From positions 1 to 64,000 of IMG/VR virus record IMGVR_UViG_3300036857_000203: DNA of 64,000 bases. The stretch is one strand, 5' to 3'. Positions within the stretch are counted from its first letter, which is position 1; each line of letters begins with the position of its first letter. Below are positions 14,523 to 37,078 of the stretch, one piece after another. Source of the stretch: a virus. A model generated the notes under the pieces. That model had not been told where the DNA came from, did no database searches, and saw only the letters and a list, made by a program, of their open reading frames with translations. The translations under genes were made by a program, and so were the position numbers.

Positions 14523-14972
14523 CTAAGCAGTACGCTCACGCAGCATTGCCTCGATCTCATCACGCAGTTGCTTGCGCGTAATCCCTGGCATGATTTCTTC
14601 GATGATCACGTTGGTGATCTTCTCCGTCAGAAGGCGGAGCTGTTCGTCGCTGATTCGCGTCAGGCTCTTACCCTTGGCCTCGATCTTACGTGTGTGTGGA
14701 TCGTAGATCGCTTTGCTGTAGCCGACACGCACCTTGAACGCTTCCATGGCATGATCCTTGTCGAGAAATTCGTCCGAATTGTTTGCAACAAGATGAACGA
14801 GAGCCCAAAGATACCGTAGCAACTGGATGTTCTTCTCACGTCTGATGGTGGCAGTCACATCGCTGTCCATGGAGATGATATGCAGGTCCTCTTCCGCCAT
14901 TTCAGAGGACGGAAACAATCCGACCTCACCACGATAGTGGGCACGACGCTTTCGAAGAAAGGTTTCGATCAC
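14523..14972 (-). CDS. NinB/DUF1367-like recombination accessory protein
   Basis: GTG start after AGGAGG. RREKNIQLLRYLWAL..FKVRVGY..KSLTRISDEQ. Located downstream of the ERF gene. Confidence 0.6.
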   Translation of the reverse strand: MIETFLRKRRAHYRGEVGLFPSSEMAEEDLHIISMDSDVTATIRREKNIQLLRYLWALVHLVANNSDEFLDKDHAMEAFKVRVGYSKAIYDPHTRKIEAKGKSLTRISDEQLRLLTEKITNVIIEEIMPGITRKQLRDEIEAMLRERTA

Positions 14973-14987
14973 GTCGCGCCCCTCCTT

Positions 14988-15069
14988 GCCTGCCTCACCT
15001 CGCCGAGCCAAGCCACACCGAGGCCTGTCTTGCCGTGACGAGCCAAGCCGAGCCGAGCCGCGCCATGAA
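14988..15069 (-). ncRNA. Stand-alone GGC-NN guide unit B (14 pentamers plus GGCAGGC end)
   Basis: Intergenic minus-strand sequence AT GGC GC GGC TC GGC TC GGC TT GGC TC GTC AC GGC AA GAC AG GCC TC GGT GT GGC TT GGC TC GGC GA GGT GA GGCA GGC; same grammar as the main array. Confidence 0.8.
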
Positions 15070-21860: not shown

Positions 21861-23467
21861 AGGAACTCAGACCTTACCAAGAAGACGCCCTCCAGGCGAT
21901 CCGGCAGACGGTAGGCCAGGGGGTGAAACGTCTCGTGTGTCAATCACCTACTGGGTCAGGCAAGACGTTGCTCGCGGCAACGATCGTTGACGGCGCGCTG
22001 CGCAAGGGCAACCGGCTGTGTTTCACGGTGCCGGCGATCGACCTTGTCGATCAGACCGTGGAGATGTTCTACGCCCAGGGCATCAAGGACGTCGGCGTCA
22101 TCCAGGCTGACCACCGGATGACCAACTGGCAGATGCCAATCCAAGTCGCGAGCATCCAGACTATCCGCTCGCGCGGAATCTATCCCGAGGCCCAGGTCGT
22201 CGTCATTGACGAGTGCCACCAGTTGCACAAGGCGCACGTCAAGTGGTTGAGCGATCCTGACTGGCAAGCAGTGCCGTTCATCGGGCTCAGTGCAACTCCC
22301 TGGACGCGCGGCCTCGGGAAGCACTTCTCGTCCTTATTGGTGATGTCTACGACGAAAGAGCTGATCGAGGAGGGGTACTTATCCAGGTTCCGGGTGTTTG
22401 CGGCGGATCATCCTGATCTGAGCAATGTTCCGACCATGGGCAAGACCGGCGATTACAAGGAAGCGCCGCTGTCCACCGTGATGAGCCAGCAGCAGCTGAT
22501 GGCGAACGTGATCGAGACCTGGAGGGTGCGCCACAACGCTGACAAGACGCTGTGCTTCGCAGTTGATCGTGCGCACGCGAAGTCGCTGCAAGAGCGCTTC
22601 CTCGACGCTGGCATCTCATGCGCGTACCAGGACGCCAACACACCGAGCGCAGAGCGTGCAGAGATCAAGAGGAGATTCCATAGTGGAGATTATCGTGTGG
22701 TTTGCAGTGTCGGAACATTGTGCACGGGCGTCGACTGGGACGTCAGATGTCTCGTCTTGGCAAGGCCGACGAAGAGCGAAATGCTTTACGTGCAAATCAT
22801 TGGTCGAGGCTTACGAACGGCTGAGGGCAAGACTCACCTGCTTGTTCTCGATCACACGTCCACAACGGAGCGGCTCGGGCTGGTGACCGACGTTCACCAC
22901 GATAGCTTGTCGATGGGCAAGCTCGATGAGAATAAGGCTGCTCCGCGTAAGCCGCCGCTGCCTCGACCCTGTCCGCAGTGCAGCTGCCTGATGGCGGTCG
23001 GTGTACGAGTCTGCGAGGAGTGCGGCTTCGAGCGCAAGATCGTGTCGAAGGTCACCGAGAGAGACGGTCAGCTGGTGGAGTTCGATGGGACGTTTCGCAA
23101 GAAGGGCAAGACTGATCCCAAGTTGCTGCCGTATTCGTTCGCGGAGAAGATCAAATACTTTCAGCAGCTGCGCGGCTATGAGGTAATGCGTGGCTATCGG
23201 AAAGGTTGGGCCGCGAATCAATTCCGGGAGAAGTTCAATGAAGGCTGGCCCCCGTGGTCCTGGAACGATCTCGCACCAATGGCGCCCGGCCCCGAAGTCA
23301 CGTCCTGGATCAAATCCCGACTCATTGCATGGGCACAGAGTAAAGCTCGAACTGCTAGCGCTGCAGCTGGCACTCCACGGTCCGACAGCGGTAACACCCA
23401 GCGCAGTTCGTATTCTGGCGCGAAGCCCGCTGTGGCTGGAGACGAGACTACTCCTCCGTGGGAGTAA
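21857..23467 (+). CDS. Superfamily 2 (DExH) helicase with C-terminal zinc ribbon
   Basis: LRPYQ, SPTGSGKT, VIDECH, LSATP, GVDWD, QIIGRGLR, CPQC..CEECG. Confidence 0.92.
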   Translation: MKELRPYQEDALQAIRQTVGQGVKRLVCQSPTGSGKTLLAATIVDGALRKGNRLCFTVPAIDLVDQTVEMFYAQGIKDVGVIQADHRMTNWQMPIQVASIQTIRSRGIYPEAQVVVIDECHQLHKAHVKWLSDPDWQAVPFIGLSATPWTRGLGKHFSSLLVMSTTKELIEEGYLSRFRVFAADHPDLSNVPTMGKTGDYKEAPLSTVMSQQQLMANVIETWRVRHNADKTLCFAVDRAHAKSLQERFLDAGISCAYQDANTPSAERAEIKRRFHSGDYRVVCSVGTLCTGVDWDVRCLVLARPTKSEMLYVQIIGRGLRTAEGKTHLLVLDHTSTTERLGLVTDVHHDSLSMGKLDENKAAPRKPPLPRPCPQCSCLMAVGVRVCEECGFERKIVSKVTERDGQLVEFDGTFRKKGKTDPKLLPYSFAEKIKYFQQLRGYEVMRGYRKGWAANQFREKFNEGWPPWSWNDLAPMAPGPEVTSWIKSRLIAWAQSKARTASAAAGTPRSDSGNTQRSSYSGAKPAVAGDETTPPWE

Positions 23468-23593
23468 TCTGTTCACCGGGGCCGAGATCAACATCTTGAT
23501 GGGCGGAGTGCACCCCCATGGCTGTTGCTGCTGGGGGTGCATCCGTCAGTTACGACAGCGGGTGATAGCCCACCGTCGCAGGCTGGAGGCTAA

Positions 23594-24152
23594 GCCTGCC
23601 AAGCCCGGCCAGGACTGAACGCACCAAGCCAAGCCCGGCCCTGCCTTGCCTCGCCTCGCCAAGCCCTAGCTAGCCGGGCCAGGACTGCCACGCCAAGCCA
23701 AGCCCTGTCAGGTCCTGGCGTGCCGTGCCTTGCCGTGCCGTGCCTGCCGGGCCAAGCCGTGCCTGTCCGAGGCCTGCCGCGTCTTGCCGGGCCTAGCCCT
23801 GCCGGGCCTGCCGCGACATGCCGCGTCTTGTCAGGTCGGGACATGCCGGGCCATACCGCGCCCGCCTTGCCTCAACTGCCGCGACATGCCGAGCCTGGAC
23901 CTGCCATGTCCAGCCGTCCGAGCCGGGCCAATGCCACGCCTGCCGAGCCAAGCCAGCGTCGGGCCAAGGCATGCCGTGACATGTCATCCACGTAGATGAC
24001 GTGCCTGCCATGCCCCGCCTTGCCGCGCACCGCCGGGCCGAGCCTCGCCGGGCCAAGCCCCGCCGCACCGGGCCTGCCGGGCCGCGCCATGCCGAGCCAC
24101 GTCCCACCGGGACGCGCCACGCCAAGCCGCGCCGAGCCTGCGTTACCGTGCC
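23594..24152 (-). ncRNA. GGC-NN pentamer array: eight 59-70 nt guide-like units plus a 19-nt remnant
   Basis: The minus strand reads GGC-NN with 5-nt period (minor GGT/GTC/GAC/GCC variants). Register is reset by a 4-nt GGCA step. Units: 24075-24138, 24006-24074, 23941-24005, 23877-23940, 23809-23876, 23745-23808, 23686-23744, 23616-23685. Starts about 8 nt after the stop codon of 24161-24691. Confidence 0.85.
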
Positions 24153-24160
24153 TAAGACTT

Positions 24161-24691
24161 CTACCGTTGGGCCGCAGCCCTCGGTCTCTCCCCCGGCCGC
24201 CGACGCGGCGGCTGCGGGCGAGATGGCGGTTTCTTCTCGTCGTCTTTGCCAAGCTCATTCACGATGCTGTCGAGCCGGGCGTAGAACTCGCTTTCCAGTT
24301 TGGTTGTTCGCGCATGACCATGTGCATCGACCAGCAAGTTGCGGACTCGATCCATGAGCACTGCCAGGATGCGCGAGTTCTTCTCCTTCGTTGCACTCGC
24401 AACATCGACGTACGTGCCGACCGCCGACCTGGGATCGGGGTCGTGCCGATATCGCGGAAGCACGCGCGAGAGATCGATGTCGTTGATCTCGGGACGGGGA
24501 CAGCTACGGATGATCTCCTCGGCACGCGCCAAGAGATACCTTCGATGAACTCGCGCCGGGTCCCAATCGAACAACTTGTTCAACTCGCTGTTCTGATCCC
24601 TCCCCGCCTCCACGACATCGCGTGCGTTGATCGTGCCGTTACCGTCGCGCAGCTCATCGAGTGCGGTGATCTGCTCGGTCGTAAGATTCAT
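24161..24691 (-). CDS. Accessory protein of the RAMP-array locus (unknown function)
   Basis: Overlaps the RAMP stop codon by 4 nt. GTINARDVVEAGRDQNSELNKLFDWD..YLLARAEEIIR. Confidence 0.8.
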   Translation of the reverse strand: MNLTTEQITALDELRDGNGTINARDVVEAGRDQNSELNKLFDWDPARVHRRYLLARAEEIIRSCPRPEINDIDLSRVLPRYRHDPDPRSAVGTYVDVASATKEKNSRILAVLMDRVRNLLVDAHGHARTTKLESEFYARLDSIVNELGKDDEKKPPSRPQPPRRRPGERPRAAAQR

Positions 24692-25506
24692 GTGCTCGCT
24701 CCTGGTTGCTCGGGTTGATCGCTTGAACGAGAGCGCGTTACGGGATCGCGCCGCCGCATCACCTCAGCGTCGTACCAGCCCAGCAAGTCGGCGCTCTCTT
24801 CGTCAGCGAACGATGGATCATCGAGCGCTGCGAGCTGTGCCTCGCGCCCCTCTTTCTCGACAATGTCCATCCATTCGGGATGATCGTGGCTCACGACATC
24901 CCAGGAGCCGAAAGAGAATGCGCCGCGTTCCTGGCGCCCGTCGCCGACACCGACAATCATGCCGGCGTTCATCGCTAGATTGAGCACGTCGTCGAGCGTG
25001 ATCAGGTCGCGCACATAGCGAAAGCTCATGGAGCACGCCCAGCGCGGGAAGTAGGCGCGCGTGCGGATGTCGGGCGTCTTGGCGATGCCGGCCTGCCGCA
25101 CCATCGACATGTGCAGCTGCGGGATGCCGTACAGGAAGATCGTCGGCGTGGTTACGGTAATGAGCCGGCCCACTTCCGCTCGTGTTGCGCCCGGCGTGTC
25201 GACTGCCGCCTGGGCGAGCGCTTTCTTGATGCTGTTGCCGGGGAGGTGGACGGCGGCTGGCGCATCGGCGTCGCGGCAGCGATAGACCGAGGCGCGGAAC
25301 TCTTCGAGCGGATCGTGCTTGAGGGTGGCTGCGCGTGCTGCCCGGTTGGGAGCGCGTGGGGGGAGGAGTATCTGGCGCTTCGCCTTCTCGGTGAAGCGGT
25401 TCATCACGAGCGCGCTTGTGCCCAGGAGATGGAGAGTCGCGCCCACCATCTGCAATCGACTGATGAGCGGGCGCTCCGCACCAGTCTGCTTTGCCGCTTT
25501 CGCCAT
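24688..25506 (-). CDS. Cas7/Csm3-like RAMP-fold RNA-binding protein
   Basis: RAMP hallmarks: N-terminal strand ATLHLLGTSALVM, HLPGNSIKKAL (cf. IPGSSLKG of Csm3/Cmr RAMPs), a long insertion MVRQAGIAKTPDIRTR, and a C-terminal Gly-rich loop GMIVGVGDGRQERGAFSFGSW. Confidence 0.75.
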   Translation of the reverse strand: MAKAAKQTGAERPLISRLQMVGATLHLLGTSALVMNRFTEKAKRQILLPPRAPNRAARAATLKHDPLEEFRASVYRCRDADAPAAVHLPGNSIKKALAQAAVDTPGATRAEVGRLITVTTPTIFLYGIPQLHMSMVRQAGIAKTPDIRTRAYFPRWACSMSFRYVRDLITLDDVLNLAMNAGMIVGVGDGRQERGAFSFGSWDVVSHDHPEWMDIVEKEGREAQLAALDDPSFADEESADLLGWYDAEVMRRRDPVTRSRSSDQPEQPGAST

Positions 25507-31487: not shown

Positions 31488-33110
31488 TCATGCTAAGTCT
31501 AGCGCACGCTCGGTAGAGAACGCCGGACGCTCGGCGTCGGGGGTGGTGGCGAGACGAGCGCGCTTGCTCCAGGTGCGCAGGCGCTTGACTTGGTCGGCCA
31601 TGCTGTCCACCAGCGGCACGACCTTGCTGGCGGCGTTGAGGATGTCGGTGGCTGCGAGCGCACGCTGACCATCGGTGAAGCTCGCGAACAACGCCTCCTG
31701 CACGAGGTTGGCGACCTCTGCCGCCGTGAAGGTGTCGGTGGCTTTGACGATGGCCGCCGTGTCCTCGGTGCTGAACGGCTGGCGCTTGAACTTGGCCAGG
31801 GTGACGTTGAGCACTTCGGCGCGCTCGCGCGCAGTCGGAACGTCCAGGAACCACATCTCATCCCAGCGCCCCTTGCGGAGAAGCTCGACGGGGAGCCGGT
31901 CAGGGTCATTGGCCGTTGCCAGGATGAAGGCCTCGGACTTGCGGTCATTCATCCAGCTGAGCAACACCGCGAGTTTGTCTGCGGCCACGCCGCCGTCACC
32001 GGCAGGACCCGCGCCACCGGAGAGGGTCTTGTCCACCTCATCGAGCCAGAGCACGCACGGCCCCAGGGCATCGACGGTGTCGAGCATGGCGCGGATATTC
32101 TGCTCGCTCTCGCCCAAGAACTTGCTGCCGGTCGCGCCCAGGTCGCCTTGGACGAGCGGGCATAGCCATGACGTGGCGAGGGCTTGGGCAGTGAAAGTCT
32201 TGCCGCTGCCGGGAATGCCCACGAGCAAGCAGCCCTTGGGGCGCTGGATGCCGTAGGCACGAGCCTCGGGGCTCCAGGCGAGCTTGCGCTGGACAAGCCA
32301 GGGCTTCAGGGCATCGAGCCCGCCCACCGCGTCCAAGCCGCCAGGGAGCGGCTCAACCCAGCGCAGCATGCCGTTGGAGGCGATGATGCGCTTCTTCTCC
32401 TCACTGATCACCGCTGGCTCGATGGCGCGGCTTTGCACGATGCTCTTGGCGAAGCAGCCTTCGGCCTGCGGGCCGGTGAGGCCGACAGCGGCGTCCACGA
32501 TGGCTTCGCGCTTGCCGTTGAGCGGCTGCACCTTGCCAGGGTTCTGCCGGATGGCAGTGGCAATGGCCACATCGGCCATGCGGCCAAGCTCTTCACGGTC
32601 GGGCAATGGCCACTCCACCGTGACGGCGTCGTTGGCAACATCACTCGGAACCTTGGCCCCAGGCGCAAGCACGATGACGCTGGTGCCGGTGGCGGGCAGG
32701 GTGCGGGAGAGATTGCGCAGCCAGCGGGTGACGGTGACACCCGGGCCGCCATCGCACCACTTGTGCAGATCGCGGAGAATCCAGACCTCCTTGCCGCCGT
32801 CACGGGAACGCTCGCTGATCTTCTTGAGCAGGCTCACCGCATCGATGGGGGCGTTTGCCCCACCCTGGAGGGCGGCTGCGATGGGGTCGGTGGAGGCATC
32901 GTTGCCCATGCCGGCGACGGGATTGCCGCCCACATCGGTGGCACCCTCGGCGCAATCCCAGAAGAACGGCATGTAGCCCGCGCTCTTGGCGGCTTCGATC
33001 AGGCATAACTCGATCCGCCTCTCCTCGCGGGAGTTGACCCAGAGCACGCCGTTGCGTGCCTTGATCAGTGATGCGACATCAGCGCCCTGGACTTGAGACT
33101 TGGTCGGCAT
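31488..33110 (-). CDS. Ycf46/SpoVK-like AAA+ ATPase
   Basis: Degenerate N-terminal AAA domain (WVNSREERR, ILRDLH), VGGLDALKPW, GIPGSGKT, WLDEVDK, ATAND..ELLRKGRWDE. Confidence 0.9.
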   Translation of the reverse strand: MPTKSQVQGADVASLIKARNGVLWVNSREERRIELCLIEAAKSAGYMPFFWDCAEGATDVGGNPVAGMGNDASTDPIAAALQGGANAPIDAVSLLKKISERSRDGGKEVWILRDLHKWCDGGPGVTVTRWLRNLSRTLPATGTSVIVLAPGAKVPSDVANDAVTVEWPLPDREELGRMADVAIATAIRQNPGKVQPLNGKREAIVDAAVGLTGPQAEGCFAKSIVQSRAIEPAVISEEKKRIIASNGMLRWVEPLPGGLDAVGGLDALKPWLVQRKLAWSPEARAYGIQRPKGCLLVGIPGSGKTFTAQALATSWLCPLVQGDLGATGSKFLGESEQNIRAMLDTVDALGPCVLWLDEVDKTLSGGAGPAGDGGVAADKLAVLLSWMNDRKSEAFILATANDPDRLPVELLRKGRWDEMWFLDVPTARERAEVLNVTLAKFKRQPFSTEDTAAIVKATDTFTAAEVANLVQEALFASFTDGQRALAATDILNAASKVVPLVDSMADQVKRLRTWSKRARLATTPDAERPAFSTERALDLA

Positions 33111-33144
33111 AGGAGGATTACCTTTCATGGGTTACGGGAATACG

Positions 33145-33551: not shown

Positions 33552-33640
33552 GGCAAGGCAAGGCGCGGCAGGGCACGGCCCGGCGATACAGGGCTGGGCC
33601 CGGCACGGCGCGCCTCGGGGGGGGGTCATGCCCCCTCCCC
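33552..33640 (+). ncRNA. Stand-alone GGC-NN guide unit C (13 pentamers) followed by a G/C hairpin
   Basis: GGC AA GGC AA GGC GC GGC AG GGC AC GGC CC GGC GA TAC AG GGC TG GGC CC GGC AC GGC GC GCC TC, then G9-TCATG-CCCCCTCCCC. Confidence 0.8.
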
Positions 33641-34336
33641 AATATCGAGCTTGTCTTCACCCCAGGGCAGGCCATAGCGGACGGCGCAGGCCTTGCCGTA
33701 GCCTACTGCGAGGCTCTTCTTGGCGGTGGGGCTGTCGCCGCCCAGGGCAAGGTTGCAGAACACGCAGCGGCCGGTGAGCGTGGCGCTCTCCTTGGCGACC
33801 TTGGCCGGCTCGCAGGCGAACTCACGCAGGCGCTTGGCGATGGCCTCGGTGCGACCGTTGGCAACGCGCGCCGGCTGATACTGCCCATCGACCGTTACGC
33901 GGCCCAGCCACACGCGGCGCGGGCCCCAGTCGCCTTCCTCGAAGACGTCATTGTCCTTCACATCGATGCTGCCGGGGACCTTCGCCTTGGCGCTGGCGAT
34001 CGAGAGGCGAACGACGGTGTCGGCCTCGGGGACGGCCAGGGTGATGGCGGGCTTCTTGAGGCTGACCTTGGCGCGGTCGAACAACTGCAACACGCCGCCC
34101 AGGTCGCCAACGGCTTGAATGGCCTGCGCGGGCTTGGCCTGGGGCGCTAGCGACCAGACCTGATCGCCGTAGCGGTTCTTGCCCTGGTAGGTACCCAGGG
34201 TGACTTCCTGGGTGCGGCCGTCGCGCTTGTAGACGATGACGGTGCCACCGGGCTCGGCGTTGGCGGCCTTGTCCTCGGGGATGCGAACGCCCCAGGTGGT
34301 GGCGTCGAGCTTCACGTAGGAGGTCGGGAAAGACAT
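33626..34336 (-). CDS. DUF6011-like Zn-finger early protein
   Basis: C-terminal GRCVFCNLAL..SLAVGYGKACA..LPWG; start MSFPTSY after CATGAAAGG. Confidence 0.75.
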   Translation of the reverse strand: MSFPTSYVKLDATTWGVRIPEDKAANAEPGGTVIVYKRDGRTQEVTLGTYQGKNRYGDQVWSLAPQAKPAQAIQAVGDLGGVLQLFDRAKVSLKKPAITLAVPEADTVVRLSIASAKAKVPGSIDVKDNDVFEEGDWGPRRVWLGRVTVDGQYQPARVANGRTEAIAKRLREFACEPAKVAKESATLTGRCVFCNLALGGDSPTAKKSLAVGYGKACAVRYGLPWGEDKLDIGEGA

Positions 34337-34375
34337 GTTCAGTGGCCTTTCATGGGTGAGAGCGACAACGGGATA

Positions 34376-34404
34376 CACGTATAGCACCGCAATGCATCTG
34401 TCAA
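34376..34404 (-). promoter_or_regulatory. Sigma70-like early promoter
   Basis: TTGACA followed by GCTATACG at promoter spacing; head of the leftward early operon. Confidence 0.55.
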
Positions 34405-34943
34405 TGGGTGGATTACGGTAATCGTCGCTGCGGTGCAGCAATAAGTTCCTGGGTGGGGATAGTGGGGATAGCGCGCAAAGGGCTTCCCGAATCAGACGCA
34501 ATCGCTTAAACGCATCAAGCCCCACAAGGATCGCTCCCTGCAGGGCTTGGTTTATGTCCGCGAGCTTGGTCGGCGCTCGGACACAAGGTCTGAAACACAA
34601 GACCTTGTACTCCGCCCCCCGACCAACAGCAAGCGGTAGATGCGCTCGATGGAACGCGACCATCGAGGCGGTGCGCTCTCAACGTTGCCGGAACCGCACC
34701 TTCCGGCACGCTAGCGGAGCATTGGCGGTGCCTCGCGCGCGCGTGCGCGGCAGCGGATATCTGGAGAGAAAGAGAGGGGTCTACCGAGTAGAGCACTATC
34801 TCTCACACTCACTGTTACCTTTGGATAGAACAGAAAGGTTCTTAGTAATTAGAAAGAATCTTTCTAGAACATCTAAGGAAGATAGGAAGAGGAGAGAATG
34901 GTGGTAAGGCACTAGAGGGGCAGAACCGGGTTGTAACAACTGA

Positions 34944-36619: not shown

Positions 36620-37078
36620 ATGGCTAAGAGAACACGGTCTAAAGCCAGACCGAAACAAGCCGTAGTCCAGGCACCCGACGATGCACCCGCCCAAGTCGCT
36701 AGACGCCGCGCCAACGGCCAATGGCGGCCAGGGTATTCAGGCACGATGGGCACCGACGCGGCACGCGCACGGCGTCAACTGAATCTCTCGACCATCTCGG
36801 CCCTACAGTCCGCCTTCGACCGTTACGGTAGATCGGCCATCGAGAAGGTCGCGCGTCAGCAGCCCGCGATCTTCCTCAAGATGTTGGTATTGCTTGTCCC
36901 GCGCGAGCTTGAGATTACCCAGGCGCAGGGCCCGCGCGGGATGAGTGACGAGGCATTGGAGCAGGCTGTCCAGGCCATCGAGGGCTTCCTGGCCAAGCGC
37001 GCCGCCGGCCCTGGCGCCGACGCGCGGGTGATCGAGGCGCAGCCAGCGGCGGATGATCCATCCGCTGACAAGCCTTGA
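36620..37078 (+). CDS. Putative terminase small subunit (DUF5681-like)
   Basis: RRANGQWRPGYSG..G; AIEKVARQQPAIFLKML..PRE..MSDEALE. Confidence 0.6.
   Translation: MAKRTRSKARPKQAVVQAPDDAPAQVARRRANGQWRPGYSGTMGTDAARARRQLNLSTISALQSAFDRYGRSAIEKVARQQPAIFLKMLVLLVPRELEITQAQGPRGMSDEALEQAVQAIEGFLAKRAAGPGADARVIEAQPAADDPSADKP

What the first reader, a model, noticed from the sequence alone, without database searches (positions are those of the whole stretch)
23616..24138. The NN code skips every third base and is locked to codon positions 1-2
Concatenating NN with one skipped base (NN-x-NN-x) gives interpretable protein text for 5 of 8 array units and both stand-alone units, always with the gap at the wobble position. 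Such guides would tolerate synonymous variation and so recognise a whole clade of phages. Six guides are antisense to the decoded coding strand (units 1, 2, 4, 6, B, C) and one is sense (unit 8). Having both orientations favours a dsDNA target over mRNA.
Basis: partly seen in the sequence, partly recalled or inferred. Interest (0 to 1): 0.92.

Follow-up and report, generated by a model that had tools for sequence, protein, structure and literature searches.

The report
Phage VIPR guide array, wobble-skipping code

Summary
On the minus strand, 23590-24142 is an array of GGY-NN pentamers cut into about 8 units by 4-nt GGCA breaks. It lies downstream of a RAMP-fold gene (24688-25506) and a conserved partner gene (24161-24691). 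Two stand-alone units lie at 14995-15064 and 33552-33611.

The RAMP protein matches the solved "SUSP1 Vipr protein" by profile (E 1.2e-6, G-loop GVGD[G/W]R aligned). Its relatives carry same-strand GGN-NN arrays in 53 of 80 viral loci.

Two 2026 bioRxiv preprints describe this system (VIPR). NN dinucleotides pair with dsDNA, every third target base is skipped, and the skip falls on the wobble position.

My tests agree for some units.
- Unit 2 (gap 1) gave 38 exact IMG/VR hits, against 1 (reversed NN order) and 5 (gap 2). 36 of the 38 are in frame on the DUF5681 motif PGESGNPAG.
- Unit 1 gave 9 of 9 exact metagenome hits in vipr homologues (23/24, against 20/24 in the phage's own gene).
- Unit 8 (sense) and units B and C fit homologues of adjacent genes better than the phage's own alleles.
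- Unit 6 found nothing. Units 3, 4, 5 and 7 have no identified target.

Verdict: a new member of a known kind, and the code itself is already known. The scan had noted this locus before, on this same genome only.

The parts
24688..25506 (-). vipr gene: 272-aa RAMP-fold protein (phrog_4652). The G-loop is G186-V-G-D189-G190-R191 and the thumb arginine is R150.
   Evidence: AF2 model has pLDDT 84. The top Foldseek PDB hits are all Csm3/Cas7/Cmr/gRAMP chains (E from 1.9e-4, prob 0.9-1.0, TM only 0.26-0.37). The best VIA match is Z 7.8 to a Csm chain, which is borderline. The profile of 28 homologues hits PDB 36pp_D 'SUSP1 Vipr protein' at E 1.2e-6. It is 30% identical (E 1e-13) to Mycobacterium phage Donkeykong gp49.
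24161..24691 (-). vap-like accessory gene (176 aa), lying between vipr and the array.
   Evidence: BLASTP finds relatives in 48 ORFs that start just after the vipr homologue in fetched loci. No hit in Pfam, PHROGs, NCBIfam or PADLOC. AF2 model has pLDDT 87, with no Foldseek match at E<=0.001.
23590..24142 (-). Staggered vrRNA array: GGY-NN pentamers on the minus strand (NNGCC on the plus strand). The 4-nt GGCA breaks (TGCC on +) begin at 24075, 24006, 23877, 23809, 23745 and 23686, plus one near 23941.
   Evidence: It is on the same strand as vipr, as in 211 of 218 units across 56 sources.
24079..24138 (-). Unit 1 (12 NN). It is antisense to the vipr motif A-I-D-T-P-G-A-T-K-A-E found in related phages.
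24010..24074 (-). Unit 2 (13 NN). It is antisense to the DUF5681 N-terminal motif [F/W]xPGESGNPAG.
   Evidence: The best full-unit match is 23/26.
23616..23685 (-). Unit 8 (14 NN). It has the same sense as the helicase motif LPYxxEEKxRFYAQ.
   Evidence: Own allele 19/28 at 23126-23166. Homologues reach at most 25/28. The 10-NN seed found 0 IMG/VR hits.
23690..24005 (-). Units 7 to 3 (23690-23744, 23749-23808, 23813-23876, 23881-23940, 23945-24005). No target identified. Unit 3 contains a 6-bp-stem hairpin (GTCATC/GATGAC) at about 23983-24000.
   Evidence: for the parse. for the window best hits (P 0.5-1.0). for the U6 seed (0 hits). The hairpin was read and was not folded.
14995..15064 (-). 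Stand-alone unit B (14 NN), followed by GGCA and the ribosome-binding site of the NinB-like gene.
   Evidence: Own-allele hit 19/28 at 14749-14789. 5 of 7 mismatched codons are compatible with homologue residues, against 3.07 expected. The 2 IMG/VR seed hits do not extend.
33552..33611 (+). Stand-alone unit C (12 NN). It is on the strand opposite to the flanking genes and is followed by a G-run/C-run inverted repeat.
   Evidence: Own-allele hit 18/24 at 34080-34114. Homologues with AVGDLGGVLALF allow 21/24.
25175..25209 (-). The phage's own vipr allele of the unit-1 target (AAVDTPGATRAE): 20/24 bases, 9 of 12 dinucleotides.
23126..23166 (+). The phage's own helicase allele of the unit-8 target (LPYSFAEKIKYFQ).
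36620..37078 (+). The phage's own small ORF with a diverged version of the unit-2 target motif (WRPGYSGTMGT).
   Evidence: for the translation. No Pfam hit at E<=0.01.
23509..23541 (.). 10-bp inverted repeat (TGCACCCCCA / TGGGGGTGCA) between the helicase stop codon and the array end. It is a possible two-way terminator.
   Evidence: Read only. The terminator scan did not list it because it has no T run.

Best explanation
The stretch is the vrRNA array of a phage-encoded VIPR (Viral Interference Programmable Repeat) system with the 'staggered' array architecture.

Inferred by family membership: the minus strand is transcribed, probably together with vipr and the vap-like gene. One Vipr (RAMP) protomer binds each GGY-NN pentamer, buries the GGY and presents the NN. 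The filament pairs the NN dinucleotides with double-stranded target DNA while every third target base is flipped out. This gives a gapped R-loop that silences transcription.

Because the skipped base lies on the codon wobble position, one guide covers all synonymous variants of a conserved protein motif.

Shown here:
- the anatomy of the locus
- the homology to Vipr
- the conserved protein-array linkage
- gap-1, in-frame natural matches for units 1 and 2

Inferred from the preprints: RNA expression and processing, filament formation, dsDNA binding and silencing.

Likely targets are competing phages:
- other VIPR systems' vipr gene (unit 1)
- DUF5681 small proteins (unit 2)
- homologues of the helicase (unit 8), the NinB-like gene (B) and the gene at 33626-34336 (C)
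For: (1) Repeat anatomy. Over 2269 pentamers from 203 distinct units, the composition is G 0.97, G 0.93, pyrimidine 0.88, and 1.95 and 1.99 bits at the two N positions. 148 of 218 units are followed by GGCA and 148 of 218 are preceded by it. Unit sizes are mostly 8-14, with 8 the minimum I kept. The preprint gives 9-16 YNNGG repeats.

(2) Protein. RAMP fold. Profile hit to the SUSP1 Vipr chain at E 1.2e-6. It aligns the thumb arginine and GVGDWR with the window's R150 and GVGDGR. These are the residues the cryo-EM preprint names as GGY contacts: R138, D177, W178 and R179.

(3) Linkage. 464 of 599 candidate IMG/VR stretches encode a relative. 53 of the 80 kept loci carry parsed arrays, and 52 of 80 by the first lag-5 scan. 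Arrays lie mostly 0.5-2 kb downstream on the gene's strand. The same module occurs in 27 Mycobacterium phage records.

(4) Code. Unit 2 gave 38 hits at gap 1, against 1 for reversed order and 5 for gap 2. 36 of 38 are in frame.

Unit 1 gave 9 of 9 metagenome hits in frame in vipr homologues, in 2 distinct alleles.

(5) At the 20 codons where the phage's own alleles mismatch units 1, 8, B and C, 15 guide dinucleotides fit residues present in homologues, against 5.07 expected (binomial P 4.6e-6).

(6) 'Staggered arrays' with 1-nt overlapping vrRNAs are described in the legend of fig. S18. This fits the 4-nt GGCA break.
Against: There is no expression data. No RNA run holds the stretch, which says nothing either way. 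I found no target for units 3-7.

Exact-match scans cannot see the >=80% matches that the preprint used.

In 197 units from 55 other sources, gap-1 best hits within the unit's own locus were no better than shuffles (mean Z 0.007; 5.1% at P<=0.05). In a pooled 1.06-Mb set, the only gap-1 outlier among 202 units was unit 1. My material therefore confirms the code for only two to five units of this one phage.

Fold scores are modest (TM 0.26-0.37, Z 7.8). tblastn of the protein against 50,697 phage records did not reach SUSP1.

The window's Vipr is 272 aa against 202 aa for SUSP1, and it has G in place of the stacking W178. The VIPR type and vap class could not be assigned because the supplements are closed.
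Confidence: 0.9

Rival explanations
1. The RNA is only a scaffold. The protein polymerises on GGY every 5 nt, the NN positions drift neutrally, and the 'protein text' is chance.
For: Arrays show internal duplications typical of tandem-repeat drift, for example repeated blocks in L007 and Donkeykong. NN entropy is near the maximum. 197 units of other loci show no local gap-1 signal. Units 3-7 have no match.
Against: Unit 2 gave 38 hits against 1 and 5 in controls, and 36 of 38 fall in one protein motif in frame. Unit 1 gave 9 of 9 hits in one gene family at the homologous site. 15 of 20 mismatched codons fit homologue residues. The preprint reports reprogramming by changing NN only.
Confidence: 0.03
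2. The guides act on mRNA rather than on double-stranded DNA.
For: Units 1, 2, B and C are all antisense to the coding strand, so they could pair with mRNA. The cryo-EM preprint saw vrRNA-RNA duplexes with ssRNA.
Against: Unit 8 has the sense of the helicase motif. The preprints report targets on both strands, dsDNA binding, repression from either strand, and mostly incomplete filaments on ssRNA.
Confidence: 0.05
3. The pentamer run is a protein-coding gene with a 5-residue repeat, as annotated in Mycobacterium phage Donkeykong (gp48).
For: A 5-nt repeat gives the same 5-aa pattern in all three frames. Donkeykong's record annotates the array as a CDS.
Against: In the window no ORF spans the array; it holds only fragments of 53-128 aa on both strands. 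Brocalys leaves the same stretch unannotated. Related phages differ by block indels. The conserved features are GG plus the 4-nt breaks, not a reading frame.
Confidence: 0.01

Closest known systems
VIPR systems, type II (Escherichia phage SUSP1, Pseudomonas fulva prophage); bioRxiv 10.64898/2026.04.26.720920 and 10.64898/2026.04.26.720927
   Same: Both are phage-encoded with a minimal RAMP (Vipr) and an accessory gene. Both have vrRNAs of GGY/NN pentamers. In both, NN pairs with the target with a 1-nt skip on the wobble position. Targets lie in competing phages, including other VIPR systems. The G-loop GVGD[W/G]R and the thumb Arg are conserved.
   Different: There is no conserved ~40-nt 3' tail or pseudoknot between units; units abut through a 4-nt GGCA. 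The protein is 272 aa against 202 aa. Glycine replaces the stacking tryptophan in this phage, although many relatives have W. Two vrRNAs lie about 9 kb from vipr on either side.
VIPR 'staggered vrRNA arrays' (fig. S18 legend of the first preprint, seen as a passage)
   Same: [quoted passage not shown] This fits the GGCA phase break found at 148 of 218 unit borders.
   Different: I saw only the legend. The figure and supplementary data are not held, so I could not check whether it shows this clade or this break sequence.
Class 1 CRISPR-Cas Cas7/Csm3 backbone filaments
   Same: Both have the RAMP fold and one protomer per guide segment, with a thumb that flips bases out periodically.
   Different: The guide period is 5 with 3 buried bases, against 6 with 1 flipped base. 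The target period is 3. There are no CRISPR repeats, and I saw no adaptation genes. Spacer information is spread over dinucleotides.
Free-standing homing endonucleases beside resistant alleles (recalled, not from a call)
   Same: In this phage, four guides lie within 0.2-1.1 kb of the phage's own mismatch-bearing allele of the gene they fit.
   Different: The presumed action is silencing, not cleavage. The linkage was not seen in 197 units of other loci.

Membership tests
VIPR system | Vipr protein: a minimal RAMP with an RRM core, glycine-rich loop and thumb | tested here: met
   The top Foldseek hits are all Csm3/Cas7-type chains. The profile hit to PDB 36pp_D 'SUSP1 Vipr protein' is E 1.2e-6, with GVGDWR aligned to GVGDgR and R138 aligned to a nearly invariant Arg. 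VIA Z 7.8 alone would be inconclusive.
VIPR system | vrRNA of tandem YNNGG repeats (9-16), with GGY conserved and NN hypervariable | tested here: met
   Window units have 11-14 pentamers. Composition is G 0.97, G 0.93, Y 0.88, and N 1.95 and 1.99 bits over 2269 pentamers.
VIPR system | Array next to vipr and on its strand; adjacent accessory (vap) gene | tested here: met
   211 of 218 units are on the locus plus strand, the strand on which vipr lies in the oriented loci. 5 of the 7 minus-strand units are in this genome, where vipr is also on the minus strand. A vap-like ORF follows vipr in 48 ORFs. Which of vap1-6 it is cannot be tested here because the supplements are closed.
VIPR system | Targets obey the 1-nt skip rule, with the skip on the wobble position | tested here: met
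   Unit 2: 38 hits against 1 and 5 in controls, 36 of 38 in frame. Unit 1: 9 of 9 in frame. Units 8, B and C are in phase in the phage's own genome. Units 3-7 are inconclusive.
VIPR system | vrRNAs are expressed, processed and bound by Vipr; the RNP binds dsDNA and silences | not testable with these tools
   No RNA run is listed for the stretch. This needs small-RNA sequencing, pull-down and reporter assays.
VIPR system | Encoded by a virus or provirus | tested here: met
   The contig is 72,435 bp with identical ends. It carries a large terminase, portal, head protein, Erf, NinB-like protein and helicase.
VIPR type II (SUSP1 clade) | Conserved ~40-nt 3' tail or pseudoknot after each repeat tract | tested here: not met
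   Units abut through GGCA with no spacer. The locus is therefore not filed under type II. It fits the 'staggered array' architecture.
CRISPR-Cas | Array of identical 25-40-nt repeats that alternate with unique spacers | tested here: not met
   TRF and the parse show only 5-nt periodicity with 4-nt breaks.

The most novel reading that the evidence does not exclude
In this phage, guides are physically linked to the phage's own 'immune' alleles. Every unit with an identifiable target (1, 8, B, C) sits 0.2-1.1 kb from the phage's own copy of the target gene. That copy differs from the guide at the very codons where related phages agree with it.

Such guide-plus-resistant-allele cassettes, two of them scattered about 9 kb from vipr, could act as poison-antidote modules. 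They would silence a co-infecting relative's allele and so drive the linked allele through phage populations by recombination.

I did not see this in the parts of the two preprints that I read.
Probability: 0.25. Interest if true: 0.65.

Novelty: new member of a known kind. Interest (0 to 1): 0.35.

Why it matters
The gapped, wobble-skipping guide code is a striking mechanism, but it has been in print since April 2026. The value here is confirmation and extension.

- A reader without tools recovered the rule from one soil-phage contig.
- An independent test gave the predicted result for two guides.
- The locus documents the tail-less 'staggered' architecture across 53 of 80 IMG/VR loci.
- The same module sits in cluster-F-like Mycobacterium phages (Cheoctovirus). 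There the array is annotated as a protein gene or left blank. These phages grow on a laboratory host, so they offer an easy experimental system.
- If the guide-beside-immune-allele arrangement holds up, it would say how such guides spread and how self-targeting is avoided.

Tried and rejected
Rfam at gathering thresholds found 0 matches and tRNA search found 0 genes.

Two early paper searches for pentanucleotide repeats found nothing relevant. Two more did not find the system. One search found the VIPR preprints.

Donkeykong replicate. Five units were searched against its 59-kb genome. Gap-1 P values were 0.045, 0.845, 0.98, 0.14 and 0.77. Two top hits were nearby but low-scoring, so there was no clear signal.

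Local replicate. 197 distinct units were tested at gaps 0-3. There was no excess at gap 1, and the share of top hits within 1.2 kb was 17.3% against 17.3-18.8% for the other gaps. Splitting units into stand-alone, terminal and internal gave the same result: gap 1 had 6/43, 7/70 and 8/84 within 700 bp, against 3-5/43, 6-7/70 and 10-11/84 for the other gaps.

Pooled tests. 202 units against 1.06 Mb of loci gave a mean excess of 0.035 at gap 1. 202 units against the 38 unit-2 hit loci gave only unit 2 as an outlier.

Exact scans without result:
- Unit 1, 11 NN, in IMG/VR: 0 hits.
- Unit 6, 9 NN: 0 hits.
- Unit 8, 10 NN: 0 hits.
- Unit B, 9 NN: 2 hits that do not extend.

Reciprocal targeting: two units of L145 and all other units gave nothing notable against this genome.

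The genome-contig scan gave 10 loci in unrelated taxa, so no host could be named.

tblastn against phage records gave 13 records (Gordonia 8, Mycobacterium 3, Pseudomonas 1, cyanophage 1). It reached neither SUSP1 nor Cheoctovirus.

vap-like protein: no Foldseek match at E<=0.001.

The promoter and terminator scan gave nothing usable.

No RNA holder was listed. Contigs of three runs laid on the stretch showed no differences.

The protein-coding reading of the array was rejected (see the rival explanations).

Supplementary files of both preprints are closed. Type assignment, vap classes and the list of 664-667 loci could bear on novelty, including whether this clade or the Mycobacterium phages are already listed there.

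Full report
WHAT IS THERE

On the plus strand, 23590-24142 reads as NNGCC pentamers. GCC recurs at a spacing of 5 in 48 of 77 successive gaps. The register shifts by one base at 4-nt TGCC tokens. On the minus strand this reads as GGC-NN with GGCA breaks.

The breaks cut the run into about eight units of 11-14 pentamers. Unit 1 is 24079-24138 and unit 8 is 23616-23685.

Deviations from GGC (GAC, GTC, GGT) often lie in small hairpins, which I read. A lag-5 scan finds only two more arrays in the whole 72,435-bp contig: 14995-15064 (minus strand) and 33552-33611 (plus strand).

The contig has identical ends. It encodes a large terminase, portal, head protein, Erf, a NinB-like protein and an SF2 helicase, so it is a complete tailed-phage genome.

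THE PROTEIN PARTNER

The array follows two minus-strand genes. The 272-aa product of 24688-25506 has no Pfam family, only phrog_4652 of unknown function.

It is 30% identical (E 1e-13) to gp49 of Mycobacterium phage Donkeykong. That gene flanks a nearly identical pentamer array. I found that array because blastn of the region hit 27 Mycobacterium phage records through the array itself.

The protein has 201 relatives at E<=0.001 among 8000 scored candidates. In IMG/VR, 464 of 599 candidate stretches encode a relative. Of the 80 loci kept, 53 carry parsed arrays (52 by the first lag-5 scan). The triplet is GGC, GGT or GGA, and arrays lie mostly 0.5-2 kb downstream.

Of 218 units in 56 of 83 sources, 211 lie on the locus plus strand, where vipr lies. 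Five of the other seven are in this genome, where vipr is on the minus strand too.

A 176-aa gene like 24161-24691 follows the RAMP gene in 48 ORFs.

The AF2 model (pLDDT 84) finds only Csm3/Cas7/Cmr/gRAMP chains at the top of Foldseek. E values start at 1.9e-4 and probabilities are 0.9-1.0, but TM is only 0.26-0.37. VIA gives Z 7.8, which is borderline.

IT IS A KNOWN SYSTEM

A literature search found two bioRxiv preprints of 2026.

From the first (10.64898/2026.04.26.720920) I read the abstract, all Results, the Discussion, the Methods section on type classification, and found passages that include supplementary figure legends. From the second (10.64898/2026.04.26.720927) I read the abstract and part 1 of the Results.

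They describe VIPR systems as follows:
- A phage-encoded ancestral RAMP (Vipr) and an accessory gene (vap).
- vrRNAs of 9-16 YNNGG repeats.
- GGY is buried by the protein.
- NN pairs with double-stranded DNA while every third target base is skipped.
- The skipped base falls overwhelmingly on the codon wobble position.
- Targets lie on both strands, mostly in competing phages and sometimes in other VIPR systems.
- Seven types exist, including 'staggered arrays' whose vrRNAs overlap by 1 nt.

Direct membership evidence: a profile of 28 relatives hits PDB chain 36pp_D, 'SUSP1 Vipr protein', at E 1.2e-6. It aligns SUSP1 R138 and G-V-G-D177-W178-R179 with the window's R150 and G186-V-G-D-G-R191. 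The cryo-EM preprint names these residues as the GGY contacts.

Pentamer statistics fit the description. Over 2269 pentamers the composition is G 0.97, G 0.93, pyrimidine 0.88, and 1.95 and 1.99 bits at the two N positions. GGCA follows 148 of 218 units and precedes 148 of 218.

The locus lacks the type II 3' tail, so I file it as a VIPR system with a staggered array, type unassigned.

TESTING THE CODE HERE

In the window, with the arrays masked and both strands searched, gaps 0, 2 and 3 gave nothing. At gap 1, four of ten units had a unique best hit:

| Unit | Score | Position | Shuffle P |
|---|---|---|---|
| 1 | 20/24 | 25175-25209 | 0.0075 |
| 8 | 19/28 | 23126-23166 | 0.06 |
| B | 19/28 | 14749-14789 | 0.24 |
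| C | 18/24 | 34080-34114 | 0.065 |

All four have the gap on the wobble position. All four lie 0.2-1.1 kb from the unit. Shuffled guides put their top hit that close only 2-5% of the time. The other six units scored no better than shuffles.

Because the hypothesis came from these same data, I looked for independent material.

Unit 2. Its last nine NN at gap 1 have 38 exact hits in IMG/VR. The same NN in reversed order have 1 hit, and at gap 2 they have 5. Of the 38, 36 are in frame on [F/W]xPGESGNPAG, 4-105 residues into ORFs of 95-249 aa. The other two lie in a 39-aa ORF. Nine of nine tested ORFs pass Pfam's cut-off for DUF5681. PHROGs calls them unknown. That such proteins are small terminase subunits is recalled, not shown.

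The 36 hits are 32 different 26-mers, with all four bases at four-fold wobble sites. The best full-unit match is 23/26. The phage's own ORF 36620-37078 carries the diverged form WRPGYSGTMGT.

Unit 1. Its last 11 NN have 0 hits in IMG/VR but 9 in JGI metagenome contigs. All nine are in frame in genes 65-66% identical to the window's Vipr, at the homologous motif A-I-D-T-P-G-A-T-K-A-E. There are 2 distinct alleles. This gives 23/24, against 20/24 for the phage's own gene. I could not run a control scan for this search. [quoted passage not shown]

Units 8, C and B. Protein homologues of the adjacent genes fit better than the phage's own alleles.
- Unit 8: LPYTYEEKRRFYAQ in 4 of 18 helicase relatives allows up to 25/28, against 19/28 for the phage's own allele.
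- Unit C: AVGDLGGVLALF allows 21/24, against 18/24.
- Unit B: the improvement is weaker.

Over the four units, 15 of the 20 codons where the phage's own allele mismatches the guide carry, in some homologue, a residue compatible with the guide. The chance expectation is 5.07 (binomial P 4.6e-6). These are upper bounds, because the codon families of Ser, Leu and Arg are unknown.

Unit 8 has the sense of the helicase mRNA. Units 1 and 2 are antisense.

RESULTS AGAINST A BROADER CLAIM

- Unit 6 (9 NN) found nothing.
- Unit 8 (10 NN) found nothing.
- Unit B's two hits do not extend.
- Units 3, 4, 5 and 7 have no candidate target.
- In 197 distinct units of 55 other sources, gap-1 matches within the unit's own locus are at chance. 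This includes stand-alone and terminal units.
- In 1.06 Mb of pooled loci the only gap-1 outlier among 202 units is unit 1, at 21/24 in the vipr homologue of L006.
- Donkeykong's five units gave no clear hit in its own genome.

The guide-beside-own-allele pattern is thus supported in this phage only.

VERDICT

Two units are strong, three are moderate or weak, and the rest are open.

The locus is a new member of the VIPR family. The code itself is not new.

Noticed in passing
L001 2500-2850 (NC_051648.1 36870-37256); L002 2512-2747: Cheoctovirus Mycobacterium phages (27 records hit) carry the same GGC-NN array with GGCA breaks next to a Vipr homologue (Donkeykong gp49). Donkeykong annotates the array as a protein gene (gp48), and Brocalys leaves it blank. 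The array length differs between the two phages by block indels. The word 'Mycobacteri' does not occur in the main text of the first VIPR preprint.
   Followed up: partly
window 14749-14789, 23126-23166, 25175-25209, 34080-34114: Each of the four guides with an in-genome match lies 0.2-1.1 kb from that match. The phage's own allele mismatches the guide at codons where homologues agree with it (15 of 20, against 5.07 expected). This was not seen in 197 units of other loci.
   Followed up: partly
window 14960-14995: Relatives of the NinB-like protein start about 28 residues earlier than the ATG at 14891. A GTG preceded by AAGGAGG lies directly after unit B, so the vrRNA's 3' end (GGCA GGCAAGGAGG) would overlap that gene's ribosome-binding site. 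This was read.
   Followed up: no
window 33552-33640: Unit C is on the strand opposite to both flanking genes. It is followed by a G9 / C-rich inverted repeat that overlaps the stop codon of the upstream minus-strand gene. It would need its own promoter.
   Followed up: no
window 33626-34663: The public gene call for this ORF is 236 aa (P0141), not the 345 aa of the longest ORF. One relative carries Pfam PF19474.
   Followed up: no
L043 9240-9600; L031 9340-9560: In clades whose pentamers are GGA-NN or GGT-NN, the unit break is still GGCA followed by GGC. The break is therefore more conserved than the third base of the repeat.
   Followed up: no
L007 9593-10316: Some arrays hold very short 'units' of 1-3 pentamers between GGCA breaks, along with tandem duplicated blocks. 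This hints at growth by slippage or duplication.
   Followed up: no
window 31488-33128: This is a 546-aa AAA+ ATPase (Pfam AAA, E 5e-24; phrog_8638) lying between the main array and unit C. No link to the system was examined.
   Followed up: no
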